Virus record (IMG/VR): IMGVR_UViG_3300027906_000009
Span: 27,315 to 91,314 of that record
Length of the DNA stretch: 64,000 nucleotides
DNA from: a virus
Direction: 5' to 3' (one strand)
Made by a program: the position numbers and the translations under genes
The notes under the pieces: generated by a model
Databases searched by the model: none
What the model was told of the DNA's origin: nothing
The model's input: the letters and a program-made list of their open reading frames with translations, nothing else
Part shown: piece by piece, positions 1-31,926 of the stretch
Numbering within the stretch: position 1 is the first letter of the stretch
How the letters are laid out: every line of letters starts with the position of its first letter

Positions 1-424
1 ATGCTTTGATCTGAGATCCATTAGATAATTGGAATGAAGTCCGGTTGTCGATATCAACGTTTGAAATTCTTAACCAAGGTGGCAGGTTTTTGATTATTGC
101 TTTTACTTTTTTTACTAAATTTGCTGCAGTGTTAAATTTAGTAGCTATAACCAAAACGTTCTTTTCCCTGTGAAACATCATCATCCAAGCTACATAGGCT
201 GCTGTGATAGTGGATATCCCTAACTGGCGCGCTTTTAATATAACGTTAAACCTATGATCTTCGAAGTCTTCTAATAATTTTTCTTGAAAGTCATATAAAT
301 GAAAAGGTATTAAGCCTTTTTGAGGGTGTGTTATTTTTGCGTATGTGTGAATGAAATAGTCGGGCTTTTTGCCACAACGGACAATCTCTTTCATTATTTC
401 TCTTTTTGTGAGTTTTATTGCCAC
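1..424 (-). CDS. terL: Terminase large subunit, T4 gp17-like (N-terminal part; runs off the window edge)
   Basis: Not in the ORF track. Manual translation from GTG at 424 gives ...KPDYFIHTYAKITHPQKGLIPFHLYDFQEKLLEDFEDHRFNVILKARQLGIST...NVLVIATKFNTA...LPPWL...LSNGSQIKA, with the adenine-binding LYDFQ motif, the RQLG Walker A and the LP.W and NGS motifs of gp17 ATPases. Confidence 0.93.
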   Translation of the reverse strand, partial: MAIKLTKREIMKEIVRCGKKPDYFIHTYAKITHPQKGLIPFHLYDFQEKLLEDFEDHRFNVILKARQLGISTITAAYVAWMMMFHREKNVLVIATKFNTAANLVKKVKAIIKNLPPWLRISNVDIDNRTSFQLSNGSQIKA

Positions 425-432
425 CGAAGTTC

Positions 433-930
433 CTATTTGAGACCACCAAGTTTAAGCATTTTATCATAAGCTGGGTCTGTGGGTCTTTCTTCTACCTCAC
501 TTGAAACATCTTCCGAGGTGCCGCCAATTTTGTAGCACTTGTGCACCTTGACGCTGCAGCGGATTCGAGATATATATTCAACCAAAACATCTACTTCGCT
601 CGGTTCAGATAAGGTAAGCGCGGACTTTTTAACTTTCTTGTATTCTTTTTGAATAAAGGATTTTACCTTTTCCACCATTGACTCCATTTCACCCTCAAAA
701 TCATTAGAGTGAACCTCTTTAAGAGGTATCTCTGCGTGGTATTTAATGTGAAGCCGGTCGCCAGCTATGGAGGCACCAAACCCGTCCATAACCCTCTGAT
801 CAAGGAGAGGGTTACCTTCCTCTCTTCGAAGTCCTATTTTTATTGGCTCCCCGTTCTCGTCGTGGGCGCCGTCATAGGTGTTGGATAGTACCTGTGAAAT
901 ACAGTCTATAATTTCTAAAGTTGTTGCCAT
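433..930 (-). CDS. Hypothetical protein, 165 aa, directly upstream of terL and probably late-expressed
   Basis: Intact ORF with GAGG SD, preceded by two ACTATTTAT motifs. No motif recognised. Confidence 0.75.
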   Translation of the reverse strand: MATTLEIIDCISQVLSNTYDGAHDENGEPIKIGLRREEGNPLLDQRVMDGFGASIAGDRLHIKYHAEIPLKEVHSNDFEGEMESMVEKVKSFIQKEYKKVKKSALTLSEPSEVDVLVEYISRIRCSVKVHKCYKIGGTSEDVSSEVEERPTDPAYDKMLKLGGLK

Positions 931-9209: not shown

Positions 9210-10655
9210 TTAAAAGTCCAAGCGAACGCGGAGGGTCAATTCATTAGTTGGATCTTTTCTGAGGGGTTCTGACAACTTAGCAACGGCTAATAACTCATTA
9301 TCTGCTGAATATAGCCCAACTGTTGTGACATAGGATCTTGGGAGATTAAGAATCTCATTTGTGCCCGGATTAGTTTTAACCCTAATTTTACTTCCTGTTA
9401 AGTATGTTGGGTTGGAACTATAATTAAATTCTGCGTTGTTTGCTCTACAAAAATAAATTGTAGAATTCAATTCAGTTGTGTTGTTAAAAGATATATTTTG
9501 GACCCTTCTCCTTATTCCATCTGCAAAGTTATCAATAGTTGCTTTCTTTAAAACATCGGAAGCAGAAGATGTAGCATTATTCATTATTTGTGCTGCACTT
9601 GGAAAAACTGATGGGTTCAATACTGCGACTCCGGCTTGATAGTAGATCAAACCAACACTTCCAGCGTCAACGCCGCCTATAAATGCTCCATCTGCATCAT
9701 TGGCTCCGCCATTGATACTCATACCTGAGAGTCCATTAGCGATCGCGGTGTTACCGGCGGCACCGGAGTGTTTCTGGGTGATTGTCATCTCGTATGGGCC
9801 CGAGGATCCTCCGGGTCGAGTCACAGCGCTGACTGTTACCAAGTCTTTAATAGTGGCATTTGCTTCTATTCTAGCCTTCAAGTTCGACAGGCCTGCGTCA
9901 GTGCCTCCGCGGGCGAAAGTATTACCAGTATTGGAGGAGTTGTGAGTAGTGAAGACCTCGGCTGCTTGCAGCGTCCCATCTGCTTTGAGTACAATGAAAG
10001 AAATTGTCTGGCCGGCGCCTGAGTCATTTTGAGAAGATAATGTTGCCGACGCGGCCTGAGCGGTGGCTTTTAAAATGCCATATTCGCCGGCAGGGGAGTT
10101 AATTTTATATGAATTAACTGCGTCTGAGTCTGAAATAGTAGAGATTGAATTGAAAGGAGATGCATAAGTTGTGTTCGTTCCAACTTTCATAGAAAAGCTA
10201 CCCTTTTTAATCTCATCTTTTACAAGCAGTCTTGAAAAATTTAAAAATATAACATCATCATGTTTAGTGCCGCCTGTACCAGAAAAGTCTCCATCAGCGT
10301 CAAATCTTCTAATTTTAGAATCAGTATCAAAACCGACTAAAACTTGCGCCATTTGATTATATATATTTACTTTTTTTGATACTTGAGAATTTGCTGAGCT
10401 AGAAACAGATGCTGCATTTGTACTGAATCCTGCTGAAATATCAAAAATATGGTTTGCGGAAGAGCTTTGGTATGGGTAATCATATACTGACTGGAACATT
10501 CCATGAGAAAAACTTTTTATATTGATCTCTCTGCCGGATGATGCTGCTGCATATGTTCCTGCTAGTAACGTTCCTGTAATTGGTATGCTTTCATGCAAAA
10601 GCGTTCTTGATGTTGTTTTGTCTCTTTGTGTTAGTGGTTTAAACGAAACTGCCAT
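9210..10655 (-). CDS. Virion structural protein (baseplate/tail-collar-like C-terminus) carrying an inserted module
   Basis: C-terminal YVTTVGLYSADNELLAVAKLSEPLRKD, FNYSSNPTY, AGGAG SD. Inserted module at 9672-10067. Confidence 0.7.
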   Translation of the reverse strand: MAVSFKPLTQRDKTTSRTLLHESIPITGTLLAGTYAAASSGREINIKSFSHGMFQSVYDYPYQSSSANHIFDISAGFSTNAASVSSSANSQVSKKVNIYNQMAQVLVGFDTDSKIRRFDADGDFSGTGGTKHDDVIFLNFSRLLVKDEIKKGSFSMKVGTNTTYASPFNSISTISDSDAVNSYKINSPAGEYGILKATAQAASATLSSQNDSGAGQTISFIVLKADGTLQAAEVFTTHNSSNTGNTFARGGTDAGLSNLKARIEANATIKDLVTVSAVTRPGGSSGPYEMTITQKHSGAAGNTAIANGLSGMSINGGANDADGAFIGGVDAGSVGLIYYQAGVAVLNPSVFPSAAQIMNNATSSASDVLKKATIDNFADGIRRRVQNISFNNTTELNSTIYFCRANNAEFNYSSNPTYLTGSKIRVKTNPGTNEILNLPRSYVTTVGLYSADNELLAVAKLSEPLRKDPTNELTLRVRLDF

Positions 10656-18973: not shown

Positions 18974-21900
18974 TTAACTTTCTTTCTCTTTAATATATGT
19001 AACGCTTATTGCGTCGCTGGTGCCGATCGAATCCACAAAAGTCACAGTGTTTCCGGAAATGGTATAATCGTTTCCGGTACCTGAGGTTTGTAAAACTCCG
19101 TTAAGATAAATAGATTCTGTTCCACTTTTTATTCTAAAACCGGTTCCAGGGTTGACTGTGATTGCATTGCCAGATGGTGCTGCGGCGCCGGATGCCTTCA
19201 TTTGATGTCTAAATATCATATTGTCGAGTGCTAAAAATTTAGTCGCATCAACTTCAGATTGACCAGTTTGGATATTATCAAGAGCTTTGGGCGATAATTT
19301 GATTTTATTCTGTATGTCGTCTAATAAACTTAACTCAAATTGTGGCGCTATAGGCTCAGGCGCCTCCTGAATATCTCTTGAGAAATAATCAACTTTAGAG
19401 TCTATCTTTATCATCTCAATTATAGAGAAGAAATCATAAGGCCAATTGTATGAATATTTCGAAAATATCTCTCTATCTCTTCTGATTGTTGACTGTACAG
19501 TTTTACCTCCAAGTTCTTGGGCCCCCGAAAGGTCAAGTATATCTTCCCTATTTTTTGAAATAGAATCTTTTATAACATTGACGTAATCCGACTCTGCCCT
19601 ATATTTAACTTTAAAGACTAACCATCTTACTTCTTTTTCTAGAAAAAGTTCGGGATTTTTATATATTGAACCTTTTCCTTTGAACAGATTATCAACATCT
19701 GGCAATACTATGCTAGAAATATATTCTACATCTGTATCTATTTCACTCTGGAGAACTCTAGAATGTTGTGCAACTGAAATACTCTTTCCACTTTCTGGGT
19801 AGAGATTCTGCCACAAGTGGGAAAGATCTTCTTGTCCTATTTCAGCTTTAAATTGAAAAATATATGATACAAAAGGATCTACATCATCGTTTTTTATAAA
19901 GTCAAATTGTGGCGGAAACACATATTTGTCCATCATTCTTAACTGATAGGCTATATTTTCTTGTGCTAAAATTCCAGGATTTTCATAAAATGATTCATAC
20001 GATTCTTCTACTAATTCTGTTTCTTGGTCATTTGATGACAATCTTAAAGCATCAAGAAATTGCTGCTTTTTAAATGAGTTGTAATTTCTAGATTCTGCTA
20101 AAGATGACGGATCCATATCGAAAAACCTCAGTTCACATTCGTCTTCAAGGTAATACGGTATTGCCACTACGGCCTCACAAACTCTTTTCTTAGATGCTAG
20201 TCTTCCTAATTTATATTTTCTAGAAGGGTTTGCCTCCTGTGGGACTGAATATGCATAATTGTAAGTGTCTCTAACAAAACCAACTGCTGAAGCTAAGTCT
20301 CCCACACTAGTCTTTCCGTCGTCTCTGGCGCCTAAAATAGTTAGATAGTAACCTTTTCCTTCGTTTGTGGGCAGCTTTTCGCCATATTGGTGCCACATTC
20401 CCCTTGATGCTGTTAAATAAGGAGTACTTGAACTGTTGAATTCTTGATAATAGTTTGTTTGGTTTCGGGTTTTCCATGGGGACCCTGAAACTTGATCTAC
20501 CTGGTTGGTGGTTAAATTTAACGCGGAGACCTTATTATTTGAAAAATCCATAACTGGCGTTTCCCATCTTGGGTGTATTACCCATCTGTAATTAGCCGGG
20601 CCGTCTTGTTGGGAGGAGGTAGTTTTGCCCGGGGATCCTTGAAAATTATAATTATCTGCCGCTAGGCTTACATATCTTGTTAGATTTAGACTGGCTGAAA
20701 CCACCATCGATTCTTTAAAATTAGTATTAGTTGAGGCATTATTTGGTGATTGCATATTTGTATATGTAACACTCATTCCGTTAATAATTTCTGGTATTGT
20801 ATACCTTCTTGTTTCCGAAGGAGTAAAAGAAATCTCCGCATATGGATCTGTGTTTGGGTCTAAATATGGTGGCACATATGGCAAAAATCCATGTGAGCCC
20901 GACGTTGCGGCCTTTGTCTCCGTTAAAAAATCGACCTTTGATGGCAATACTGAGGCGCCGCCTGCAAAACCTGTTTTTCGGTTGGTCGAGTCCGTGGTGC
21001 CAAACTGACCACCAGTGCCTGATATTGTAGTATTTCCCGCATCTCCTGATTCAACTTGTGTTAAAGTTATTATATCTGTAGAGGTTGAGTAATTAGCTGT
21101 AATTAAGTTTTGGTGGCCATTTGCATGCCCTATGGCTGTTGCAAGTGAAGTACCTATTTGGTCAGGCGTATTACCAGAGGAATAGGATCCTAATGCCACT
21201 AAAATGTTACCTGAACTATCTGTGTTTCCTGTTCCGAAAGTTGTACCTGATGTGCCATTTGAAAATCCTGCGATACTTAAACCTGCTGAAAAATTTGTTG
21301 CTATAGCATTGTTGCCTGCTGTGCCGGCTGTTGCCTGGGTTAGTGTCAACTTTCTGGATCCATCATTTGAAACATTAATTGTGTTGTTATGGCCATTTGT
21401 ACTCTCTATTACAGTTTCAGCTTGGGCAATGACTGAATGCATTCCAGTTGACATACCAAAAACTTGTATTTTAACCCTGCCGCTGCTGTCTGTTTGTCCA
21501 CTGGTACTAAAGGTGTCATGTACAAAAATATATGTTTTTTCAGTTGGAGAAGACTGTGCGTCCTTCAAAGTAAAGGTTGCGCCGTTTAGATCACTAGCTT
21601 TACTTACTGCGGTTGCTATTTCTATAGTAGCAGTGGCAGCGACTGCTGCGGTGTCTAAGACAAACTTATAAGTTTTTGTTTGACTGTTTGTTGACTGTAG
21701 AGTTACTGTATTATTGTTAAGCGCGTTTCGCCAGTCTGGGTCATTTCCAGAAAGAGATGATGGTACAGACATGTCGAGCGAGCCTGATGCTGGAGTCCCA
21801 GGAACAGTTGTTGTTTCTGGTGTATATGTAGCTATTTCCGGGGTGCTTTCATCCACCGGTGGCCCGAAAGCAGAGTGCCTGTCATACATCACTACATCAT

Positions 21901-24900
21901 TATTAGTAATATAAACCCTCATTTTGTAGACAACTCCATTGTTTAATAGTGGACTAACTGGTTGTGATATAGCAGTCTGTAATTTTTCATCTTCTAAGAA
22001 AAATTTAACTGTTTCCGAAGCAAAATTACCAATTGCGCTCTTATACGGTAACATTGAGTTTACAAAACCTTGATATGTACTAGAAAAATTTATTGCGTTA
22101 TTTGTGATAGTTTTTTGCCTATTCAAGGTGCCAAATGTAGGAGGATACTCATTAACCTTTAAATATTCCCTTGTGCCATAAAAAATACTGGCGCTTGGGT
22201 GTGGTTCATTATCAGGAACTATCTGGTTGTATAGCCTCTCGGGATATAAAAGATCATCAAAATTTACTCTCCTGGATGTTTCCCCTTTTAATCTTGGTAT
22301 ACCTGAATCAACAGTATTATTTATCAGAGAGCCCGTATAGCAAACACTTGATCCCAAACTCGCTCCATCAAAATTTCCAATAGGTATATAAACTTTACTG
22401 TTGACCAAATAATTTTCAAAAGCTCCGTCAGTCGAGGAAAATAGAGGATAATCAACTGCAAGGCCAGATTTAATAGAATTAAATAAAACACCTGGTGCTA
22501 GGAGCGGCTTTGAAACTTTAGATTTTGTATTCTCTATCTTCAAATCTAACAGAGCCAGTGCAGTACCCTCTGTTATTTGTGTGTTAGATATATAACTGGC
22601 GTTATAAGAGCCTGATTTTAAATAATTTCTGTGGAAAATTTCTGATACTTGGACTGCACGTTCTGCAGGATACATTCCCCTATATGGCAAAAATCTTTTT
22701 GCTGCAGAGCATTTTAGTGTTAATTTGCCAGCGAATAAATCTACATTTTGATTATCTAAATTTTCCTGAAATGGTTGAAAATATTTCATAAAATCAGAAG
22801 TAGAATATGTTTTAAAAAATTGAGTCCCTATCGATATATCACCCGATGATGAGTGATAAATCGCTCCTGTCAAATGTAAAAAGTCGTCTGTAATGGTAGG
22901 ATTATCCAAATCCGAAGAAGCATATATATCTTCTATATATTTACTTATTGTAAATTCTGGTATTATAGAATAGTTTTGACCTACAAGTCTAATTTCTTCT
23001 GCATATTTGTCGTAAGAATCGTAAAACGGTCCGATTTTGTTGCTTGAGGTTGCTTCCCACAATGATTCTCCTGCCAAGAATTCGTCGGATCCGAAAATTT
23101 GCGGGATTCTTCTGTTATAGATAGGTGCAAATGGGGGGGCGCCTCGCAAGAAATTATTTCCAAGTGGAAAAATACTATAATCATTTTGTAAAATTCCTTC
23201 GTTTCTTGTAGCCTGATCTCGATTGTTCGAGAATTGGGTCCCATCATTAAAGAAAGATGATGTAATGCTGATTGGTTTAGTAGAGAAATCACTTCTAGAA
23301 TCCAAAACCCATTTACTTGTTTTAATCATGGACCTACTATTTTCAGAAGCAAACGGATTATAAGTCATCTTATGGCTCATGAGGTCGACCATTTCATAGG
23401 TTCCAAAATAATCTTTTTGAAACTCTTTGTGGTTAATTATTTGGGTTGGCTGTAAAAATAACTTTTGATCATAAGCTGATTGGCTTACTAAATAATCTGA
23501 ATAATTTAAATTTCCTGTTAAAGCTAGAGATCTGTTTGCAAGTTTAGAGTCCCATCCAAAAAACTTAAATTTTTCTCTAGTTCTTGCATTTTTTGTATAT
23601 GTATTTATTTCTCTTGGATATATCGTTTCTAAATAATTTAGTTCTGTTTTGTTATATTGTCCCCTGATTAGGTCTAATCTACCTATCGTGTTATTTAGTA
23701 TTTTTAAATTTTCGTGATCTAAAAATGGCTCTTCTTCAAACCTTATCAGGTCTGACATCTCTTGATTTGCGAATCCTGTAATGTTATTTTGTAATGGCAA
23801 ACTAAGTGTGAAACTTGGCATTAATTGTATATTTTCTCGAGATGAAGCCCTGTACGCTTCTAGTACAATCTCATGAAAAAACTGGTCGAAATTCCACATC
23901 GACTCAAGTTGACGCTGGTTTAAGTTCCTAGCTTGATTGTCTCCTAGAAACCCAAACAACTGGCCGGATTCATAAGTATGTATACTTAAACTAAGCGGCT
24001 TGTATTTTGAAGTGGCCATAACTTCTTTAAAGTTAGTAATGCTCCTAGGCTTTGCAAAAGTTCGATTGTCTTCTTCTGTCCTGGAGTAATCAAATTGATA
24101 CCCCTGCCTGTGTGATGTAAATGGCACCTTTGATGTGAACACCGCTGAAAATATATTGTTTTTCTTGTGAGCCCTGGATATGGCGTGCTGGGATCCTCTT
24201 ATTTGTTTCCACGATGGCCAGCCGTATGGGCCTTGGCGGTTTAATATTATAGAATTTAATGTTGATGCATCCCCAAAGAAACCAGATGCTGTTCGAATTG
24301 AATTTTCCGGGTTACCGCGGTGCATAGTATCAGGATTAATAAGGTTATTTACAAAATCTTGTTTGGTACCAGTAAAAATCTGATCCGTGCCGAGTGTGTT
24401 TGTATTTATAGACAAGGGTTCCAAAACAATTGTATTTAAATTCACAAAGTCAACAGGCGTGAACGTGCCGGCTGTGAATGAAGCATCCTCTGCGCCGTAA
24501 ATTTGTGTTGCACCTCCGAAGGTGCCGGCGCCGAGTTCACTAGATGCCAAAAAAGTTATACTTGACTCTGATTTTATACCGGCAGCATGCTCATAGGTGT
24601 GTTGATGTCCTGAATTGCCATTAAGTCTTGTAAAGTTCAACGGCAGGAGCGCAGAAGCGGTGATCCACAGGTATCCAATATCAGTTTGAGGTATCTCATG
24701 TTGTACGAATAAATTATCTGGCTTGTAATAAATATCTCCCGTCATGCTCGGACTCAATGGGCCGGACATAAACCTTCTATAATTTCTATTAGTTTTATGT
24801 ATTGACGCTTGAGTTGTAGAACCCGAACGGTACCCAAACCGTTCAGAATATTCTGAAGATAAATTATTAAGAACCCCTCTAACCAGAGTGTTTCTGTAAT

Positions 24901-27900
24901 TTATTGTACTGTATACTGAAAATTCCTCTGCTTCTCTATCCAAACCATACTTTCCGGATGTTTCGGGGCCGCCCGGTGGGGAAAATCTATTTACGAAAAC
25001 ATGTTCTCTTCTTGTTCTATCTGGTACGAAATGGTTTACTGTGCCTATTATATATTCTGATTTATTAAGAGATCCTGTTAAATTTTTACCTTCTTGTTCT
25101 ACTAAATAATTATTATTATTTGTTCTGCCGGCTGTTTGCACTATTTCATAATCTTTGTGATAATTTCCTTGCTTAATTGGGTCTGTGGAAGCTTTTATGT
25201 TGGCCATGCTATAAAGTCTACTAGATTCTATAGGACTATGAAACATGGTACTATACCTATCTGAAGTTTCGATAGTAAGTGAACTGGTAGTTTCTGATAT
25301 TTTATATGCTTCGATTCTTTCTAAAGTTTGCCCTATTTTGTTTTTTCTGTGAGGGGGCCTAACATCAAGAAAATCAGGCTTATTTATTTTTAGCGAATCT
25401 CCCATAAAGTGGTTATTCGTTATTTTTAATTGTGTTTTAAACTTGCTAAAGTCTGTGCCGACTGAAGAACTGTATAAAGAAAAAGGTAATACAAAGTCTG
25501 CATCTGCATTATTATAATCCTGAATGCCAGAAACATTAGTTTTTGATGTATATCTTTCTTTTTGAATTGGTCTCGTGATGTCATCGCATTGTTTAAACTC
25601 ATATATATCATCTGATGATATTGTTATATTTGTGTTATTTTGATATATTATCTTGTAGAGATCTTCAACTTTATTGGTGTCTTTATTATGCCCTATATTT
25701 AAAATCTTCTGCTTTGTAATTGTGTGTTTGTAGGGCCTAACTAGGTTTCTTAAAGCGTACTTTCTAAAATTGTTTCCTGGGTATGAATTTGAGATTTTAG
25801 TGGTCAATGTATCTTTAATCTCTTTTCTCCCTGTGCTGGTGGGTACCTCTTTTCTATCCTTTTGCCATAAACAATTTTTATTTTCCTGTTGGTCGTGATG
25901 GCCATGCTCCCAATCATATAGCAGTTCATTTATTGACAACATATTAGTTTCAAGTTTTGGTGGCTTAGTATCTATTATCGCGTATTTATGGTGATATTTA
26001 TTTCTTTCAAGTGCATGACTTTCAACTACATTGTGCATGCCTGTGTTGTAAATTGTCGATGCGGCCAGTGTATGCTCCACAAGATTTCCAAACGAGGCGC
26101 CTATCCATTTATAATAATTAACAAATTTTTCAAAACTAATCTCATTCTGTACATTTTCAAAATATTTTTCTTTCAAATATTGCAATAATTTATAATTTGC
26201 TCGATATCTGTTAACTGGTTCACCTATAGCGTTATTAAGCAATTCAACTCCAGAAAAGAAACTTATCATATCTTTAGAAATCACCTCATACATGCTTTTT
26301 TCAAAAGATAGAATATTTGTTTCTGGAGTTAAAGAAAAATCAAATTTATCTACTGGGTTTTCTTTTAACTGTACTTGGTCTAAACCCTTAATGCTTGCTA
26401 ATGGAGTATTTTTAATTTGGTTTATGTAATCCACATACACTATATCTGTCAACTTATTGTCAAAACCATGAGATTTAAAATCATAATTGGTCGACAGGTC
26501 AGAATCATATATTGGAGATGTAATATCTTGTCCGGATGTTTCATCCTCAATAGTGAAATTTGCCGTGTTATTATTAGAAACTTTACTAAAATTTATTCTA
26601 AAAAGTTTTGTGTTTTCTGATTTTATAGTTTGATCTGTGTTAATTTGTTTTGGTCTTAATTTTTGTCTTCCCCTGTGAGTGAAAGTCTTACTTCTTAATT
26701 GCAATTCTTCGTCTGTTAATTGATCCTTCCAAGCACTAAAATTGAGTATTCTTATATCGGTCTTATCTATAACTGAACCTGTAATGTTAGTCTTATTTGC
26801 TCCAATAAAAATAGTTTTATTCGCAGAGTTAAACAGATTGTAATTTGCCCTAGACAATTCTGATGTCAATGAAAAACTATCCATCAATTTATCATCAATA
26901 TAGTTGTATCCTGAAAATATAATTTCATATTTTTCAGTTCCGTGATCAATGAGTGGGCTGCTTGTCTTCTTTCTTATTCTTAGTGATACGTTCCACCTTG
27001 AATCATCGTAGACCTTTTTCAGAAATGGTGTCTTCAAATCTTGTGATAAAAATTTACTAGATTTTAAGACAAAACGCGCTTTGGGATCTACAAGATTTTG
27101 CTTCTCAACAATCACAGTAAAATTGGCATTGTCCGGCGAAGGTGTTACAAAATTATTTTGTACCCCAGATACCTGTTTTATACCGAAAACACTAGATGTA
27201 GATATTTCGTGCTGAGCTTCGACTCTTTTTGCAAAAATAAATGAGCCTTCAAAAGTATACTCGTTTGGCACAGTTGAAGTCGGTATAAAACTTGAGTCGC
27301 CGGCTGATGTGTAGAATTGGTGTAAATTTGCGGAGCTATTATCTCGAAAATTTATTATTTGAACTCTTTCTGCCTTTTTTTCAGTCTTATTGTCTTTAAA
27401 CGGGATTTCACCGCCCACTAGAGAATAAACATCACTAATAACGTCAGTTGAGACGCCGGCTAATTTATATATTGCAGCATACCCAGCTTCAGTGCCTTTT
27501 TTATTGAATATCGCCCTTCGATAATTTTTAATATTTTGATGTATAGTCCTTGCACTGACTTGCGTTGGTTTAGTATATCTAAGGTGGCCGGAAATTTGCT
27601 CCATCTGGTCTAGTAAGGGCTCCTCTTCCTGCAAAATCATTGATGTCATATCTGTGTCAATACCTTCATCCTCTGCTTGTTCTAGCGGTAGCCTTCCAGT
27701 ATTCTGGTTTGATAATCCTGTTTGTATATACTCATCAACACAACCTACAAAGTATTTGTCCCCGTAATCTAAATAATTTTCGTCATAGGATCCTGTAGTG
27801 TTTGTTCCCGCTTGAATCACACCGTCCCAATTGGGGCCTCTAGAGCGAAGAGTAGCATCGAGTTTATTTCTTACTTCATCAAATTGCACTGCCATCATTT

Positions 27901-29332
27901 GCAGGAGTATTTGAAATTCTCGCTTACTTTCACTGTCTTGTTCAACAAAATCCTGGCGCGCCCATTCCGGTATAAATCTTTCTAAATTATTATTGTTCAA
28001 CCTATCGTAAGCTTCTCCAATCTTTCTGGTTTTTGATATTAGTTTTTGAACTGTCTGATCTGAATTTTCTAATATCGGAGTCTGGACTTCTGTATTTTTT
28101 GTTGCTTGTGATTGATTGATCGCTGATTCTGGTATTAGAGTATTTTCATCATATTCTCTTATTCTTCCTGTTATTTCGTTTCCAGAATAATCAAAAACCA
28201 AACTATCTTTTTTTGTCTTGCCAATTGGTGGCTTATTGAAATTGTAATATAGGCCCATTCTAGACGTATATTCCTTATTAGAAAAATCATTTGCAAACAC
28301 TTTTTTATCAAAGTAGCGGCCGATTTCTCTATTGTTCCTAAGTCCCTTCCAATATTTGAAGTCGTCCAAAGAACCCGAAAACGAACCGGGTGATGAGGTT
28401 GCAGTATTATCTTTTCCTATTTTTCCACAAATATAGGATTTTACTTCTGGCATTTCTCCTATTCCAGACTGCGTTACAGTCTGGTTTATCTGGCCATCTA
28501 CATAAAGTTTAAATTTTAAATTATTATTTATTTTAATAGCAGAGACAGCATAATGGTGCCACTTGCCATCACCGACACTAGCAGTAGTAATTGGCTGTAC
28601 TGGGTCTGCAGGGTCTCCTATTTGAATGTCTGTAGAGCCGGTTGTTGCCGTTGTATATGTGACGCGGAATGGTGAGCCGGCGGAGGCCGACAAATGAAGC
28701 TTAAACTTAGCTTGATTTTCTGGTTGAGTACTTCCTGGTAATGTACCAATATCAAAGACAACTTCTTGTTGTTTTGAAGCATTAAACCCATCCTTTTTCA
28801 TCCAAAACTCTACAGTATTTCCCTTTGAAGGACTTAATAAAACCCCTGGTTCGTCATTGCTAAGTTGTCCCAAGAATTCAATTTGGGGTATTTTTCCCGC
28901 TCCTCCATTAAATTCTATGTACTGTTTGTAATTAAATCTAACGCTGCCGACTGCGCCTGGCCATTTTTGATTGAAAAGAGCAGTATCTAGACTTGGTGAG
29001 GTCATATACCAATCATAGTGTTCCTCTTGGGTGCCATCAAAGGGATAGTAATTAATTATGTTGTATATTGCATCTACATAATATTGTTGCGCGCTGCCAT
29101 AAAACGCAAAAGTAGAAGGATCAAAAGAATTGATTGGTGGTCGAAAAGCATCCATAAAAGATTGTTGCTTTGATATCAGCGAATCTGATTCTGCCTCATT
29201 TGATAATTTATTATTTTTCTGATTTAGGTGGGCCCTATTTGATCTTTTAAAATACTCTTCTTTTCTTTTATCCGCGGCAGTAGCTATAGTAATTTCCTGG
29301 CTATTTCCGTCTTTGCTGCTAAAATCTGTCAT
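18974..29332 (-). CDS. Giant baseplate/tail protein, 3452 aa, with LamG (ConA-like) domains
   Basis: LamG motifs TVEFWMK, DGKWHHYAV, LYVDG and GSLDDFKYW, plus a second LamG-like region. KKGT wedge-protein motif. C-terminal IYLNGVLQ..G..NDYTISGNTVTF virion domain. Follows the gp25 and gp6 genes. Confidence 0.75.
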   Translation of the reverse strand: MTDFSSKDGNSQEITIATAADKRKEEYFKRSNRAHLNQKNNKLSNEAESDSLISKQQSFMDAFRPPINSFDPSTFAFYGSAQQYYVDAIYNIINYYPFDGTQEEHYDWYMTSPSLDTALFNQKWPGAVGSVRFNYKQYIEFNGGAGKIPQIEFLGQLSNDEPGVLLSPSKGNTVEFWMKKDGFNASKQQEVVFDIGTLPGSTQPENQAKFKLHLSASAGSPFRVTYTTATTGSTDIQIGDPADPVQPITTASVGDGKWHHYAVSAIKINNNLKFKLYVDGQINQTVTQSGIGEMPEVKSYICGKIGKDNTATSSPGSFSGSLDDFKYWKGLRNNREIGRYFDKKVFANDFSNKEYTSRMGLYYNFNKPPIGKTKKDSLVFDYSGNEITGRIREYDENTLIPESAINQSQATKNTEVQTPILENSDQTVQKLISKTRKIGEAYDRLNNNNLERFIPEWARQDFVEQDSESKREFQILLQMMAVQFDEVRNKLDATLRSRGPNWDGVIQAGTNTTGSYDENYLDYGDKYFVGCVDEYIQTGLSNQNTGRLPLEQAEDEGIDTDMTSMILQEEEPLLDQMEQISGHLRYTKPTQVSARTIHQNIKNYRRAIFNKKGTEAGYAAIYKLAGVSTDVISDVYSLVGGEIPFKDNKTEKKAERVQIINFRDNSSANLHQFYTSAGDSSFIPTSTVPNEYTFEGSFIFAKRVEAQHEISTSSVFGIKQVSGVQNNFVTPSPDNANFTVIVEKQNLVDPKARFVLKSSKFLSQDLKTPFLKKVYDDSRWNVSLRIRKKTSSPLIDHGTEKYEIIFSGYNYIDDKLMDSFSLTSELSRANYNLFNSANKTIFIGANKTNITGSVIDKTDIRILNFSAWKDQLTDEELQLRSKTFTHRGRQKLRPKQINTDQTIKSENTKLFRINFSKVSNNNTANFTIEDETSGQDITSPIYDSDLSTNYDFKSHGFDNKLTDIVYVDYINQIKNTPLASIKGLDQVQLKENPVDKFDFSLTPETNILSFEKSMYEVISKDMISFFSGVELLNNAIGEPVNRYRANYKLLQYLKEKYFENVQNEISFEKFVNYYKWIGASFGNLVEHTLAASTIYNTGMHNVVESHALERNKYHHKYAIIDTKPPKLETNMLSINELLYDWEHGHHDQQENKNCLWQKDRKEVPTSTGRKEIKDTLTTKISNSYPGNNFRKYALRNLVRPYKHTITKQKILNIGHNKDTNKVEDLYKIIYQNNTNITISSDDIYEFKQCDDITRPIQKERYTSKTNVSGIQDYNNADADFVLPFSLYSSSVGTDFSKFKTQLKITNNHFMGDSLKINKPDFLDVRPPHRKNKIGQTLERIEAYKISETTSSLTIETSDRYSTMFHSPIESSRLYSMANIKASTDPIKQGNYHKDYEIVQTAGRTNNNNYLVEQEGKNLTGSLNKSEYIIGTVNHFVPDRTRREHVFVNRFSPPGGPETSGKYGLDREAEEFSVYSTINYRNTLVRGVLNNLSSEYSERFGYRSGSTTQASIHKTNRNYRRFMSGPLSPSMTGDIYYKPDNLFVQHEIPQTDIGYLWITASALLPLNFTRLNGNSGHQHTYEHAAGIKSESSITFLASSELGAGTFGGATQIYGAEDASFTAGTFTPVDFVNLNTIVLEPLSINTNTLGTDQIFTGTKQDFVNNLINPDTMHRGNPENSIRTASGFFGDASTLNSIILNRQGPYGWPSWKQIRGSQHAISRAHKKNNIFSAVFTSKVPFTSHRQGYQFDYSRTEEDNRTFAKPRSITNFKEVMATSKYKPLSLSIHTYESGQLFGFLGDNQARNLNQRQLESMWNFDQFFHEIVLEAYRASSRENIQLMPSFTLSLPLQNNITGFANQEMSDLIRFEEEPFLDHENLKILNNTIGRLDLIRGQYNKTELNYLETIYPREINTYTKNARTREKFKFFGWDSKLANRSLALTGNLNYSDYLVSQSAYDQKLFLQPTQIINHKEFQKDYFGTYEMVDLMSHKMTYNPFASENSRSMIKTSKWVLDSRSDFSTKPISITSSFFNDGTQFSNNRDQATRNEGILQNDYSIFPLGNNFLRGAPPFAPIYNRRIPQIFGSDEFLAGESLWEATSSNKIGPFYDSYDKYAEEIRLVGQNYSIIPEFTISKYIEDIYASSDLDNPTITDDFLHLTGAIYHSSSGDISIGTQFFKTYSTSDFMKYFQPFQENLDNQNVDLFAGKLTLKCSAAKRFLPYRGMYPAERAVQVSEIFHRNYLKSGSYNASYISNTQITEGTALALLDLKIENTKSKVSKPLLAPGVLFNSIKSGLAVDYPLFSSTDGAFENYLVNSKVYIPIGNFDGASLGSSVCYTGSLINNTVDSGIPRLKGETSRRVNFDDLLYPERLYNQIVPDNEPHPSASIFYGTREYLKVNEYPPTFGTLNRQKTITNNAINFSSTYQGFVNSMLPYKSAIGNFASETVKFFLEDEKLQTAISQPVSPLLNNGVVYKMRVYITNNDVVMYDRHSAFGPPVDESTPEIATYTPETTTVPGTPASGSLDMSVPSSLSGNDPDWRNALNNNTVTLQSTNSQTKTYKFVLDTAAVAATATIEIATAVSKASDLNGATFTLKDAQSSPTEKTYIFVHDTFSTSGQTDSSGRVKIQVFGMSTGMHSVIAQAETVIESTNGHNNTINVSNDGSRKLTLTQATAGTAGNNAIATNFSAGLSIAGFSNGTSGTTFGTGNTDSSGNILVALGSYSSGNTPDQIGTSLATAIGHANGHQNLITANYSTSTDIITLTQVESGDAGNTTISGTGGQFGTTDSTNRKTGFAGGASVLPSKVDFLTETKAATSGSHGFLPYVPPYLDPNTDPYAEISFTPSETRRYTIPEIINGMSVTYTNMQSPNNASTNTNFKESMVVSASLNLTRYVSLAADNYNFQGSPGKTTSSQQDGPANYRWVIHPRWETPVMDFSNNKVSALNLTTNQVDQVSGSPWKTRNQTNYYQEFNSSSTPYLTASRGMWHQYGEKLPTNEGKGYYLTILGARDDGKTSVGDLASAVGFVRDTYNYAYSVPQEANPSRKYKLGRLASKKRVCEAVVAIPYYLEDECELRFFDMDPSSLAESRNYNSFKKQQFLDALRLSSNDQETELVEESYESFYENPGILAQENIAYQLRMMDKYVFPPQFDFIKNDDVDPFVSYIFQFKAEIGQEDLSHLWQNLYPESGKSISVAQHSRVLQSEIDTDVEYISSIVLPDVDNLFKGKGSIYKNPELFLEKEVRWLVFKVKYRAESDYVNVIKDSISKNREDILDLSGAQELGGKTVQSTIRRDREIFSKYSYNWPYDFFSIIEMIKIDSKVDYFSRDIQEAPEPIAPQFELSLLDDIQNKIKLSPKALDNIQTGQSEVDATKFLALDNMIFRHQMKASGAAAPSGNAITVNPGTGFRIKSGTESIYLNGVLQTSGTGNDYTISGNTVTFVDSIGTSDAISVTYIKEKES

Positions 29333-31926
29333 TATTCCACTCTAAACCTAAATTTTTCATTTAAAATTGATTTTTGATCGCCATGAATACAACAAAAAGA
29401 GATTTCATAAAGGTACCTTTGTTGTAAATAACTAGTGTCTAAAAGAAAGTTACAACCCCGTTCGTTATACCCAAGTCCAGAAAAATTTACTGCACTCCCG
29501 GTTGAAAATGGCACAATCACTAAATCATCTGCAACTCTTTTTATTTGGTAATATACGTTATCGAAATAATCAGGTGATGCATATCCTGTTACTTTTGAAT
29601 ATACATTAGGATTACTTAGTTTATTTTTTATAGTTACATTTAATTGAGACTTTTCTCCTGATTTGTAGCTTGGTTTCAAATTTTGTATAGATGCAATCTT
29701 GTCTATATTCACGCTTTCGCCAGAATATATATCTCTATATGATTTAACCTTAACAGGAGAATTACCACCAAAACCTCTTATATTGCCGGTATTCGAATCT
29801 AATGCTTTGGAATTACTTCCTGTTGGTATAGTCCATTTCTCATACAATGTGTCTTGAGCTATATTGTTTGATATGATGAAAGATGCTTTATAGACTCCCG
29901 TCGATTGTTTAACGCAAGTGACGTCAACTCCTGAAACTGCTTCTGAAGAGTTTCCTCTAAAATTTCTTTTTATTATTTGCAAGTCTAAGGCCGCTTTAGG
30001 AAGAGGCCATTTTACGTCAGGATCCGAATCAAATACTGATCCACTTAGTGGTAAAGATTTTAAATAAGTTATAATGTCACCACCATTAGTGGGATCTGTT
30101 TTAGTGGTTAATGTGTCGTGTGTGTTCGATGCATTGAAAGATCCAAAATCGCCAAAGAATTTTGGAGGCTGCAGTGATGTAGTTATGGGATTTCCCGATG
30201 CATCTGCAGTTCGGTGTAACGTAACAGAAGAATTCCAGCCATGATTGTTACCCCCTACAACTCGAGTATAAATTCTGATTTTATTGAAGCCATAATTGAT
30301 TGCCCGGAAAAGATTCGAGAACCCTGGATGTCTGTTCATTGTCTCAACTAAACTTTCCGCCGTCTTAACAATATTTTCCATACCATCAGGAGAATATGCC
30401 GGATATGCCTGGGGGTGTCGTTGGATATGCCTCATTGCTCTTGCTCTACTTGCAAAGTTACGCTGTTTCAAGCCGATGGGATAAAAATAAAAAGAAGTAG
30501 TTTCCAGCGTTAAGGGATTATAGTAAGATACTATGACTATACCAGAACCAGTATTTTGACTATTACCTCCAGTTGCCTGATCGTATGCTGATGTCTCTAA
30601 AAGAGTTAGCATCTCGAATTCAGCATAAGCATTTTTTAAATCATCAGCCTCACTGTTGGATGTTGTATATACCGTATTATCTAGTACTATTGAGACGTGT
30701 TCTGACAAGCCTTTATCTGTCGTCAATGCAAATTTTGGAATTGATGGTAGGTCCACTAGTTTCCCATTTATATAATTGTGATAGTAAAGGTTGTTTGTGT
30801 TTTGTGCATTTGTAAGCTTAGGGTCAGCAGTAACAAGTTTTCCTCTATCATCAGTAATCCTAGAATCCCACTGTGCCTCTATTACGGGCCTCTGGAAATA
30901 ATATTCCGATTCTCTTGCCGAAAACTTCTTTGTGAAATATGATTTTTTTAAACTTCCGTCTTCGAAAGATCCAGAAAGCTTAATTAAAAAGCCATTGTTT
31001 TGAATCCCTGCGCCGCCTGAAAAGTTAACAACAACAGATGCCATATTTTTTGTTATTGTCGTGTTTCCGTAATACCCTTTATGCTTCTGGGTTATATTTA
31101 CCTTTAATGGGTCGCTTCCATCAATTGCTCCGGAAAATATAGTGTTGAATGCTGAACTATCGAATAAACCTTTAAATTTTCCCACCACTGTTGATATATT
31201 GTTACTACTAACATCTAACAAATGTGTTTTGTCAGTTGATCCAGAAGTGTTAGCAGTTTGTACTATTCTGTAGTCGCCATTAGTGGCGCGGAATTTCAGT
31301 GTTTCACCAACGGGTGGCACGGTACCAAATTTTACAGATCCGGATGCTGCAGAAAAATAAGAGCTTTCTTGTGATTTGATATACTCTTCAATTATTGGCG
31401 TCACATTGATGCTCAAATCTTCTAAACCGGTATCGAAAGTTTGATTAAATTCTACTGGAATTGTAGCGCTATTCATCTCTTGTTTTATAGGTATCGATGC
31501 GCCTTCGGTCGCCCAAGAGAGGCCGGTATCTCTATATTGCCAGTTACAAGTGTCCAAGTCCGAAAACTCTTCCATATCTAAGCCTAATCCCTCCCTCCAA
31601 GATTCAAGAATCGGAATGGCTGAAATGGTAAAATTTTTAGGTATTGTATTCCCATGTTTTACATTAAACAAATTTAAATTAAATTGAACTGAAGATGATG
31701 CTGGTATCAAGTTTGAGGTTCTATTTGCGGTTATTTCAGTTATAGGAAATTGTACTAAAATTCTGGTTTTTTCTATTGATGAAGTAGTGGCTTGACCATA
31801 GACAGAATAAATTTCTAGAACGTCAGATGCGCCCATGTTCGATAATTTACCAGTCTGGGACATACCGCTTTTGAATGCTGTTGTGATAGTGTTATCTTTA
31901 TTTGCTGTGTATCTTTTTATGGCCAT
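29332..31926 (-). CDS. Virion/baseplate protein, 864 aa, with DNRLRE-like N-terminus and inserted modules
   Basis: MAIKRYTANKDNTIT...RILVQF...W.EG.G...NNGFLIK...F.ARE....RP.IE..WD pattern of phage DNRLRE-like beta-sandwiches. Confidence 0.6.
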   Translation of the reverse strand: MAIKRYTANKDNTITTAFKSGMSQTGKLSNMGASDVLEIYSVYGQATTSSIEKTRILVQFPITEITANRTSNLIPASSSVQFNLNLFNVKHGNTIPKNFTISAIPILESWREGLGLDMEEFSDLDTCNWQYRDTGLSWATEGASIPIKQEMNSATIPVEFNQTFDTGLEDLSINVTPIIEEYIKSQESSYFSAASGSVKFGTVPPVGETLKFRATNGDYRIVQTANTSGSTDKTHLLDVSSNNISTVVGKFKGLFDSSAFNTIFSGAIDGSDPLKVNITQKHKGYYGNTTITKNMASVVVNFSGGAGIQNNGFLIKLSGSFEDGSLKKSYFTKKFSARESEYYFQRPVIEAQWDSRITDDRGKLVTADPKLTNAQNTNNLYYHNYINGKLVDLPSIPKFALTTDKGLSEHVSIVLDNTVYTTSNSEADDLKNAYAEFEMLTLLETSAYDQATGGNSQNTGSGIVIVSYYNPLTLETTSFYFYPIGLKQRNFASRARAMRHIQRHPQAYPAYSPDGMENIVKTAESLVETMNRHPGFSNLFRAINYGFNKIRIYTRVVGGNNHGWNSSVTLHRTADASGNPITTSLQPPKFFGDFGSFNASNTHDTLTTKTDPTNGGDIITYLKSLPLSGSVFDSDPDVKWPLPKAALDLQIIKRNFRGNSSEAVSGVDVTCVKQSTGVYKASFIISNNIAQDTLYEKWTIPTGSNSKALDSNTGNIRGFGGNSPVKVKSYRDIYSGESVNIDKIASIQNLKPSYKSGEKSQLNVTIKNKLSNPNVYSKVTGYASPDYFDNVYYQIKRVADDLVIVPFSTGSAVNFSGLGYNERGCNFLLDTSYLQQRYLYEISFCCIHGDQKSILNEKFRFRVE

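What the first reader, a model, noticed from the sequence alone, without database searches (positions are those of the whole stretch)
20957..21790. Russian-doll insertion: a module nested inside a copy of itself in the 3452-aa protein
Seen: the outer copy begins ASGSLDM...NNTVTLQSTNSQTKTYKFVLD. It is then interrupted by a complete inner copy (21254-21652: AATATIEI...NGATFTLKD...EKTYIFVHD-TFSTSGQTDSSGRV...IESTNGHNNTINV...LTLTQATAGTAGNNAI...GFSNG). The outer copy resumes TFGTGNTDSSGNI...AIGHANGHQNLITA...ITLTQVESGDAGNTTI...GFAGG. The break in the outer copy (KTYKFVLD | TFGTGNTDSSG) matches a continuous loop in the inner copy (KTYIFVHD-TFSTSGQTDSSG). Inference: the domain has adjacent N- and C-termini and extends outward by recursive self-insertion, building a stalk of adjustable length, much like outer domains of flagellins and tail sheaths.
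Basis: partly seen in the sequence, partly recalled or inferred. Interest (0 to 1): 0.72.

Follow-up and report, generated by a model that had tools for sequence, protein, structure and literature searches.

The report
Self-nested surface domain in phage baseplate protein
A giant baseplate-region protein of an uncultured marine phage carries a ~140-residue surface domain split open by a second copy of itself, and related phages have 0 to at least 7 such nested copies at the same spot, so nesting depth appears to work as a length dial for a protruding arm.

Summary

- **The nest in the window.** In the 3452-aa ORF (window 18974-29332, minus strand), residues 2515-2792 read A1-A2-B2-B1. The rejoined outer halves align with the contiguous inner copy at z = 11.4 and 38% identity.
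- **Structure prediction.** AlphaFold2 with structural alignment shows the inner copy as one compact domain. The split outer halves form the same fold around it.
- **Orthologues.** Between the same two conserved anchor motifs, orthologues show A^n B^n with n = 0, 1, 2, 3, 4, 5, about 6 and at least 7, roughly 150 aa per level. For a 5-level orthologue, structural matches fell into the level ranges I had predicted for the four outer levels; the innermost matched only weakly.
- **Fold.** The module has no Pfam, PHROG or PDB sequence match. Its fold resembles the protruding domain of tail sheaths and FliD D3 (Z 8-9).
- **Spread.** The same module sits in this phage's own sheath and in three other proteins (an adaptor-like one, the baseplate neighbour and one unannotated). 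It occurs in at least 1153 protein clusters, and it is also nested or tandem in some of the 144 new listed carriers.

Not shown: that the arm is a straight stalk, what it binds, and how levels are added.

The closest published precedents are the Si3 arm of cyanobacterial RNA polymerase and flagellin D4/D5. This scan has noted similar self-nesting in other phage genomes.

The parts
18974..29332 (-). Gene for the 3452-aa giant protein that holds the nest. It is a conserved member of the baseplate gene block.
   Evidence: Single ORF. No Pfam or PHROG hit. It lies downstream of gp25-like and gp6-like wedge genes. The order p3117 - gp25-like - gp6-like - p864 - giant - p279 - p1033 - p1074 is seen in every one of 27 IMG/VR loci as far as the DNA held reaches; a few loci lack a match for one or more neighbours.
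21848..21889 (-). N-side anchor motif MYDRHSAFGPPVDE (residues 2482-2495) of the conserved core, just before the insertion site.
   Evidence: Invariant columns in alignments A2, A3 and A5. Used to delimit the site in 42 homologues.
21791..21838 (-). Ascending base strand (residues 2499-2514) leading out of the core.
   Evidence: AF2 strands E22-33 and E36-43 of the model. This strand and the descending base strand are about all that remains in the zero-copy orthologue P0042, whose site is 41 aa.
21653..21790 (-). A1: N-terminal half (three strands b0-b1-b2) of the outer module, residues 2515-2560.
   Evidence: A-HMM hit. z = 5.7 against A2. AF2 pLDDT 92-93 over b1-b2.
21515..21652 (-). A2: N-terminal half of the inner module, residues 2561-2606.
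   Evidence: A-HMM hit. Part of the compact domain at model 85-219 that matches sheath and FliD domains.
21242..21514 (-). B2: C-terminal half (b3-alpha-b4-b5-b6) of the inner module, residues 2607-2697.
   Evidence: B-HMM hit. Same compact domain as A2.
20957..21241 (-). B1: C-terminal half of the outer module, residues 2698-2792. It completes the fold begun by A1.
   Evidence: z = 7.8 against B2. pLDDT about 92. VIA rows spanning model 35..317 have only 90-102 aligned residues at 3.0-3.6 A to single-domain templates.
20906..20956 (-). Descending base strand (residues 2793-2809) returning to the core.
   Evidence: AF2 strand E319-332.
20855..20896 (-). C-side anchor motif SHGFLPYVPPYLDP (residues 2813-2826) of the conserved core.
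   Evidence: Invariant columns in A2, A3 and A5.
31000..31350 (-). Single, un-nested copy of the same module in the neighbouring 864-aa protein.
   Evidence: Module HMM E = 9e-7. Motifs checked by eye.
9714..10064 (-). Single copy of the same module in the 481-aa protein.
   Evidence: Module HMM E = 1e-4. Motifs checked by eye.

Best explanation
The segment is a two-level Russian-doll of one autonomous alpha/beta surface module of about 140 aa. The module reads b0-b1-b2 | b3-alpha-b4-b5-b6. Its first and last strands enter and leave together, and its b2/b3 loop tolerates an insert.

The chain leaves the conserved core of a giant baseplate-block protein on one strand. It lays down the first three strands of the outer module, builds the whole inner module, finishes the outer module, and returns to the core. 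Each level therefore places one more folded domain further out on a two-stranded connection. Related phages set the number of levels anywhere from 0 to at least 7, about 150 aa per level, and some place an unrelated 480-800-aa segment at the centre.

Shown here:
- the homology of split and whole copies;
- the nesting in the predicted structures;
- the n-series in orthologues;
- the kinship of fold with tail-sheath and FliD outer domains;
- the presence of the module on other virion proteins of the same phage.

Inferred:
- The nest is an exposed arm whose reach is tuned by depth, for contact with the host surface or for displaying a distal domain.
- Levels are gained and lost by recombination between misaligned copies in the A array and, mirrored, in the B array. 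Selection then keeps the two counts equal.
For: Homology of split and whole copies. z = 11.4.

Orthologue series.
- 31 of 42 homologues with both anchors have equal counts of A and B with all A before all B (counts 1, 2, 3, 4, 7).
- Three have unequal counts, and each leaves a gap that could hold an undetected A. The other eight have only B units or none.
- Site lengths step 41 / 169-193 / 305-326 / 468-471 / 627 / 762-824 / 977 / 1858 aa.

Window model (AF2, mean pLDDT 76.9).
- The inner copy, model 85-219, is one domain.
- The outer copy matches the same templates over 35..317 with about 100 residues aligned.

Five-level orthologue L038.
- Secondary structure is 5 x (b b b) followed by 5 x (b a b b b).
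- Each class has 79-112 residues aligned at 1.7-3.8 A to one sheath or FliD domain, with best Z of 8.6, 8.2, 9.0 and 8.8.

Mirrored history.
- In P0027 the A-copy and B-copy identity matrices correlate 0.87 under nested pairing and 0.27 under parallel pairing. Only 5 of 5040 permutations reach the nested value.
- MAFFT, which knows nothing of nesting, puts the window's inner A on level 3 and its inner B on level 3 of L038.

Surface role.
- The module is found in the sheath just N-terminal to the conserved sheath core, and in adaptor-like and baseplate-neighbour proteins.
- Sheath additional domains lie away from the tube (PMC9230969).
Against: - The structures are predictions from shallow alignments (20 and 15 sequences). 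pTM is 0.59 and 0.34, so the relative placement of levels, stalk or cluster, is not determined. I could not read coordinates.
- Fold matches at Z 8-9 are at the upper edge of what unrelated models reach in this tool's own calibration.
- The innermost level of L038 matched only weakly (Z 4.2).
- The level-by-level best-hit test across proteins agreed with mirroring in 85 of 149 comparisons against about 40% by chance. These comparisons are not independent.
- No binding function, expression or virion location has been shown.
- At the same site some orthologues (P0016, P0026, L041) appear to carry tandem rather than nested copies. Nesting is therefore not the only solution.
Confidence: 0.8

Rival explanations
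1. The architecture is nested, but each level arose by a literal one-step insertion of a complete module copy into the b2/b3 loop of an existing module (copy-and-paste). It did not arise by mirrored expansion of two arrays.
For: - The break in the outer copy sits exactly at the A|B junction of the contiguous copy.
- The module is mobile: it sits as a single insert in five proteins of this phage and in at least 1153 clusters.
- In G. thiophilus flagellin, D5 is described as a duplicate of D4 inserted in one of its loops (PMC11532411).
Against: - P0027 shows a period-2 pattern: A3~A5 66% and A4~A6 86% identity, B3~B5 71% and B2~B4 77%. A single-module insertion cannot give this pattern. It needs a two-level unit duplicated on both sides.
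- P0025 lacks the outermost shell of P0013 on both sides (the global alignment cannot tell which shell). Change is therefore not confined to the innermost loop.
Confidence: 0.3
2. There is no nesting. The A units form a separate beta-rich stem and the B units are an ordinary tandem array of autonomous domains. On this view A-A-B-B reflects two unrelated tandem duplications.
For: - In the wider family some proteins show runs of B without detected A, for example P0102, P0144 and P0167.
- The A HMM is short and weak.
Against: - Single modules always have A directly followed by B, and structural matches to one-domain templates cover both halves (model 85-219).
- Split ranges 35..317 and 44..762, 92..663, 140..574 and 186..482 show that about 100 residues from far-apart segments superpose on one small domain.
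- A and B counts are equal in 31 proteins.
Confidence: 0.05
3. The nest is real but it is not a reach-setting stalk. On this view the modules fold back into a compact cluster that cements or shields the baseplate, as proposed for sheath additional domains. Depth differences would then be nearly neutral.
For: - pTM is low and gives no fixed axis.
- Evseev et al. discuss virion stabilisation as one role of additional sheath domains (PMC9230969).
- The window's protein has no distal cargo.
Against: - Several orthologues carry a 480-800-aa unrelated centre at the tip of 1-7 levels. This looks like display of a distal part, as with the split domains of RTX adhesins (PMC12077191).
- Depth varies widely between otherwise collinear proteins of 35-46% identity.
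Confidence: 0.25
4. The similarity is a compositional artefact of a Ser/Thr/Gly/Asn-rich region, or an assembly chimera.
For: The region is rich in S, T, G and N.
Against: - Composition-preserving shuffles never reach the observed score (0 of 500, z = 11.4).
- Conserved motif positions (KTY, NGH, TLTQ, G..GN) are invariant across 14 modules.
- The same layout occurs in many independent metagenomes.
Confidence: 0.01

Closest known systems
Si3 insertion of cyanobacterial RNA polymerase beta' (RpoC2): recursively inserted HABAS / sandwich-barrel hybrid domains (PMC11515920; PMC13114784, 'six-level nested')
   Same: Copies of one domain family are inserted into one another several levels deep inside a loop of a large conserved protein. 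The split halves close in reverse order.
   Different: - The fold differs: HABAS is an all-beta hybrid motif, while this module is alpha/beta with sheath- and FliD-like matches.
- Si3 is ancient and essentially fixed within a lineage. Here depth varies from 0 to at least 7 among related phages at one site.
- The context is a virion protein, not a polymerase.
Flagellin outer domains D4/D5 of Geovibrio thiophilus (PMC11532411; PDB 9au6)
   Same: [quoted passage not shown] That is the same one-level self-nesting as in the window.
- FliD and flagellin domains are among my fold matches.
   Different: - Only one level is described.
- The match of my models to 9au6 itself is weak (Z 4.4-4.8).
- No sequence relation to flagellin families was detected.
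Additional (protruding) domains of myovirus tail sheath proteins (Evseev et al. 2022, PMC9230969; e.g. PhiTE 9cba, A-1(L) 8kee, Milano 8foy, Mu 9khy)
   Same: - These give the best fold matches: Z 8.1-9.0, 79-104 residues aligned, 1.7-3.1 A, up to 23% identity.
- They are inserted domains formed on an outgoing and a returning chain, placed away from the tube.
- The module occurs in this phage's own sheath.
   Different: - The host here is a 3452-aa baseplate-block protein, not the sheath.
- The same module hosts copies of itself.
- No Pfam sheath model hits the module.
Split domains of RTX adhesins that project ligand-binding domains (PMC12077191)
   Same: A domain is interrupted so that another domain is held out from the main axis. 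This is comparable to orthologues with a large unrelated centre.
   Different: In the adhesins the host and the insert are different folds and usually one level deep. There is no self-nesting.

Membership tests
Recursive self-nested domain architecture (A1-[A2-B2]-B1 and deeper) | The rejoined outer halves are homologous over their full length to a contiguous copy. | tested here: met
   Score 139 against 46 +/- 8, z = 11.4, 38% identity.
Recursive self-nested domain architecture (A1-[A2-B2]-B1 and deeper) | The split halves form one compact domain in three dimensions around the insert. | tested here: met
   Predicted models only. Rows spanning 35..317 have about 100 residues aligned. In the 5-level orthologue the four outer levels give ranges 44..762, 92..663, 140..574 and 186..482.
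Recursive self-nested domain architecture (A1-[A2-B2]-B1 and deeper) | Related proteins differ by whole levels, with matched numbers of opening and closing halves. | tested here: met
   n = 0 to at least 7. Counts are equal in 31 proteins.
HABAS / SBHM domains of RNA polymerase Si3 | [quoted passage not shown] | tested here: not met
   The module has a long helix and five to eight strands. No RNA polymerase or HABAS chain appears among the structural matches. The likeness is in architecture only.
Tail-sheath protruding domain / FliD D3-like fold | Structural superposition covering most of the domain with a score clearly above background. | tested here: inconclusive
   Z 8.1-9.0, 79-104 residues, 1.7-3.1 A, consistently sheath and FliD at the top. 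The tool's own calibration says Z 7-8 is common for unrelated models.
Tail-sheath protruding domain / FliD D3-like fold | Occurrence as an inserted domain in a bona fide sheath protein. | tested here: met
   Module HMM E = 1.5e-11 at residues 614-737 of the 1100-aa sheath, whose core (739-1098) hits PHROG 23 and Pfam sheath models.
Flagellin / FliD sequence families (Pfam) | A significant profile match. | tested here: not met
   No Pfam family at E <= 0.1 for the protein. None is consistent across 14 modules at E <= 10. The PDB profile search finds nothing below E 0.2.
Ig-like phage decoration domains (Big, Hoc-type) | A match to an Ig-like Pfam model, or an all-beta sandwich fold. | tested here: not met
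   Big_3_5 scores only E 0.99. The module contains a 13-16-residue helix.

The most novel reading that the evidence does not exclude
Nesting depth of this module is a fast-evolving, heritable ruler.

- Phages would change the reach of a baseplate arm, or of a distal binding domain, in steps of about 150 aa.
- The change would come through mirrored, register-shifted recombination between the array of opening halves and the array of closing halves.
- The result is 'bracket-balanced' repeats, a mode of protein length variation distinct from ordinary tandem repeats.
- The same unannotated module family would do this across many virion proteins of marine phages.
Probability: 0.35. Interest if true: 0.85.

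Novelty: new variant of a known kind. Interest (0 to 1): 0.68.

Why it matters
Domain insertion is common, but a domain hosting copies of itself several levels deep is published, as far as my searches show, essentially for one case: Si3 of cyanobacterial RNA polymerase. One further single-level case is known in a flagellin.

Here the same principle appears in a different fold, in virion proteins, and as a variable character. One orthologous site holds 0 to at least 7 levels among related phages.

That gives three things:
- a natural series for testing how nested domains fold co-translationally, since the outermost domain cannot close until several hundred, and in the deepest case about 1,700, intervening residues are made;
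- a way to see how such arrays expand while keeping their brackets balanced;
- a test of whether arm length matters for host recognition.

The work also defines a large unannotated module family of at least 1153 clusters. This family links tail-sheath outer domains, FliD-like domains and baseplate decorations.

Tried and rejected
Searches that found nothing:
- Pfam and PHROGs on the whole protein.
- Pfam on 14 modules at E <= 10: only scattered chance hits.
- PDB sequence profile search: nothing below E 0.2.
- PHROGs and Pfam on 20 other carriers of the module.
- Pfam on the central 'cargo' of four orthologues.
- tblastn of the nest and of the conserved core against 50,697 cultured-phage records.
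- Single-protein scan of IMG/VR for the segment: no relative. The alignment-based scan did work.
- ESM Atlas: only hypothetical clusters, plus one lead to the crAss auxiliary capsid protein at 0.90, not followed.

Limits of the tools:
- Foldseek against PDB with the two-domain model gave only weak rows, best E 6e-3. VIA-align was needed to see the domains.
I could therefore not fetch DNA for most orthologues, including the 7-level P0027.
- Model coordinates are not exposed. I could not measure contacts, the distance between termini or the length of the arm.

Weak or failed analyses:
- Aligning a fragment to full-length proteins scattered its ends. This was fixed by including the anchor motifs.
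- The best-hit level-mapping test was only modestly above chance, 57% against about 40%, and its comparisons are not independent.
- My first identity matrix for P0027 contained an overlap artefact. It was redone.
- The 155-aa plus-strand ORF 21204-21671 opposite the nest was not examined and is assumed to be spurious.
Full report
**What is in the window.** Window 18974-29332 on the minus strand is one uninterrupted ORF of 3452 aa. The finding's coordinates 20957-21790 correspond to residues 2515-2792. The segment splits into four pieces:
- A1, residues 2515-2560;
- A2, residues 2561-2606;
- B2, residues 2607-2697;
- B1, residues 2698-2792.

The outer copy breaks after ...KTYKFVLD and resumes at TFGTGNTDSSG. 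The inner copy runs straight through KTYIFVHD-TFSTSGQTDSSG.

**Is it more than chance?** I removed the inner copy in silico and aligned the rejoined outer copy to it.
- The local BLOSUM62 score is 139 against 46.1 +/- 8.1 for 500 shuffles (z = 11.4, none reaching it).
- A1 resembles A2 (z = 5.7) and B1 resembles B2 (z = 7.8).
- A halves do not resemble B halves.
- Identity of outer versus inner is 38%.

The order A-A-B-B is therefore real. It is not a plain tandem repeat, which would read A-B-A-B.

**Context.**
- The contig is 91 kb, with nearly every long ORF of the window on one strand.
- Directly upstream lie a gp25-like wedge protein (Pfam GPW_gp25, PHROG 261), a gp6-like wedge protein and an 864-aa protein.
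- The block p3117 - gp25-like - gp6-like - p864 - giant - p279 - p1033 - p1074 appears in the same order in all 27 related IMG/VR loci, as far as each locus reaches.
- The sheath gene relates the phage distantly to Microcystis phage Mel-JY01, Rhodothermus phage RM378 and Flavobacterium phages.
- Neither the nest nor the conserved core of the giant protein has a tblastn match in cultured phages.
- The protein itself has no Pfam or PHROG match. Some relatives carry a LamG-type domain (PF13385).

**Orthologues.** A word-indexed search found 78 relatives, mostly from marine metagenomes. I built HMMs of the A and B halves, iterated them on these proteins, and delimited the site by two invariant core motifs, YDRHS and HGFLPY.

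| Levels | Site length (aa) | Examples |
|---|---|---|
| 0 | 41 | P0042, hairpin only |
| 1 | 169-193 | P0029, P0030, P0039 |
| 2 | 305-326 | the window, P0003, P0006, the 2.1-kaa family P0004-P0019 |
| 3 | 468-470 | P0017, P0020, P0022-24; the innermost copy is divergent and was first taken for an unrelated 168-aa centre |
| 4 | 627 | P0025 |
| 5 | 762-824 | P0002, P0013 |
| about 6 | 977 | P0021 |
| 7 A + 7 B around an 800-aa centre | 1858 | P0027 |

- With strict thresholds, 31 proteins have equal A and B counts with every A before every B.
- The three unequal cases each leave a gap that could hold an undetected A.
- Some proteins hold a 480-570-aa centre with no Pfam match inside 1-3 levels.
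- P0016, P0026 and L041 seem to carry tandem copies at the same site instead. This shows the module is an autonomous domain that can be arranged either way.

**Predicted structure of the window's segment.** AF2 on residues 2478-2845 with a 20-sequence alignment gave mean pLDDT 76.9 and pTM 0.59.
- Each module reads b0-b1-b2 (A) then b3-alpha-b4-b5-b6 (B).
- The outer copy is the most confident part, with pLDDT about 92.
- An exhaustive structural scan placed nearly all matches on model 85-219, which is exactly the inner copy as one compact domain.
- In the second look the top rows for the inner copy are tail-sheath protruding domains. PhiTE 9cba gives Z 8.9 with 92 residues at 2.4 A, A-1(L) 8kee_C gives 8.8, Milano 8fqc_I1 gives 8.7 at 22% identity, and Mu 9ki1 gives 8.1. 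FliD (6iwy, Z 7.7) follows.
- Flagellin D2, T4 gp11 and the T7 nozzle domain score lower.
- Several chains match instead over model 35..317 with only 90-102 residues aligned at 3.0-3.6 A. These include FliD 103-226 (5h5v_D Z 6.6, 5h5t_D 6.3, 9m6i_A 5.8) and flagellin 175-277 (2zbi_B 5.9). The same template regions also fit the inner copy.
- A span of 283 residues with about 100 aligned to a 120-residue domain means the two outer halves superpose on one domain with the inner copy skipped.

**A deeper orthologue as a test.** A metagenome scan supplied DNA for a 5-level site, L038:1264-3699, 812 aa, near-identical to P0002. AF2 with 15 sequences gave mean pLDDT 73.4 and pTM 0.34. Its secondary structure is five (b b b) units followed by five (b a b b b) units.

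| Level | Predicted range | Observed ranges | Best match |
|---|---|---|---|
| 1 | 43..767 | 44..762, 42..765, 44..763 | FliD 5fhy_A, Z 8.6, 105 aa, 2.7 A |
| 2 | 87..669 | 92..663, 85..669, 88..668 | 8i4m_A, Z 8.2 |
| 3 | 135..580 | 140..574, 137..573, 135..579 | 9cba and 8kee_A, Z 9.0 |
| 4 | 185..489 | 186..482, 187..483, 189..479, 183..486 | 9cb9_A, Z 8.8; 9cuy_A, 79 aa at 1.7 A |
| 5 | 239..400 | 243..397 | Z 4.2 only |

Four levels of split halves each superpose on one small known domain. This is what nesting predicts, and an A-stem plus B-array model does not predict it.

**Mirrored history.**
- In P0027, A3~A5 (66%) and A4~A6 (86%) are recent duplicates, and so are B3~B5 (71%) and B2~B4 (77%).
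- Counted from the outside, both sets occupy depths 3-6.
- The A and B identity matrices correlate 0.87 under nested pairing and 0.27 under parallel pairing. Only 5 of 5040 permutations do as well.
- By the unit sequences, P0025 lacks the outermost shell of P0013 on both sides. The global alignment shows one outer A and one outer B missing but cannot tell which shell.
- MAFFT, blind to nesting, aligns the window's inner A to level 3 and its inner B to level 3 of L038.
- A broader best-hit mapping agreed with mirroring in 85 of 149 comparisons (about 40% expected, not independent). That is supportive but weak.
- The period-2 pattern in P0027 cannot come from inserting one module into one loop. 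It needs a two-level unit duplicated on both sides.
- I therefore favour register-shifted recombination in the A array and, mirrored, in the B array, with selection for balanced counts. This is inference.

**What the module is.**
- A profile of 14 contiguous modules (invariant Tyr of KTY, His of NGH, Leu and Gln of TLTQ, Gly and Asn of G..GN) finds nothing in PDB sequences or Pfam.
- The same profile finds 1153 representative proteins at E <= 1e-3 (488 at 1e-10) among 1.84 billion.
- The 150 listed range from 138 to 3950 aa. None of the 20 I tested has a family match that reaches significance.
- Among them are single AB, tandem ABAB, nested AABB (P0101, P0136, P0150, P0112), AAAABBBB (P0080) and mixed ABAABB (P0091).
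- A 598-aa protein (P0093) has 3-4 levels whose copies look near-identical.
- In this phage's own genome the module also occurs once in each of four proteins: the tail sheath (residues 614-737, just before the PHROG 23 / Pfam sheath core), a 544-aa head-tail-adaptor-like protein, the neighbouring 864-aa protein, and a 481-aa protein.
- It is thus a mobile virion-surface domain with a sheath/FliD-like fold. Only in the giant protein does it host itself.

**Function.** Nothing here shows what the arm binds. Three things argue for an exposed, reach-setting arm:
- sheath additional domains lie on the outside (PMC9230969);
- some orthologues carry distal cargo;
- split domains of RTX adhesins project binding domains in a comparable way (PMC12077191).

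The low pTM and the lack of coordinates leave a compact, cementing cluster possible.

**Comparison with what is known.**
- Recursive insertion of one domain family is described for Si3 of cyanobacterial RNA polymerase beta'. The papers speak of 'HABAS domains ... inserted into other HABAS domains' (PMC11515920) and a 'six-level' architecture (PMC13114784).
- The present case shares the architecture. It differs in fold, in host protein, and in being variable in depth between close relatives.
- Earlier notes of this scan report similar self-nesting in other phage genomes. One of them (e1-5976974) may concern the same module family. I could not test that.

**Verdict.** It is a new variant of a known kind.

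Noticed in passing
genome C1:5081-8380 (locus L028), outside the window: The tail sheath is 1100 aa. The conserved sheath core occupies only residues about 739-1098, and one copy of the nest module sits at 614-737. The remaining roughly 600 N-terminal residues are unexplained additional domains.
   Followed up: partly
genome C1:14356-15987 (locus L029), outside the window: A 544-aa protein with a weak head-tail adaptor (PHROG 211) match also carries one copy of the module, at residues about 193-306.
   Followed up: partly
window 34312-43665 (-): A second giant ORF of 3117 aa lies just upstream of the gp25-like gene. It has no Pfam or PHROG match and is conserved in position in the related loci.
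   Followed up: no
window 2436-5534 (-): A single 1032-aa ORF matches both SbcD-like (residues 1-343) and SbcC-like (285-1027) PHROGs, and Metallophos plus SMC_N in Pfam. It looks like a fused Mre11-Rad50-type nuclease.
   Followed up: no
window 51613-54176 and 55923-57239 (-): Two adjacent glycosyltransferase genes (PHROG 2170) and a PhoH-like gene (PHROG 2765).
   Followed up: no
window 21204-21671 (+): A 155-aa ORF lies on the opposite strand inside the nest region. It is probably spurious and was not examined.
   Followed up: no
P0016, P0026; L041:4028-5440: At the very same insertion site these orthologues appear to hold two or three module copies in tandem (AB-AB) rather than nested. The site length, 471 aa, equals that of the 3-level nests.
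   Followed up: partly
P0093 (598 aa), P0080 (3548 aa): Unrelated carriers of the module also show nests. P0093 has 3-4 levels whose copies look near-identical by eye (identity not computed), which suggests a very recent expansion. P0080 has AAAA-BBBB plus a second nest.
   Followed up: partly
L043:1457-4357, L045:4031-6478; P0027, P0032, P0034, P0035, P0038: Inside 1-7 nest levels some orthologues carry a centre of 480-800 aa with no Pfam match. This may be a displayed distal domain.
   Followed up: partly
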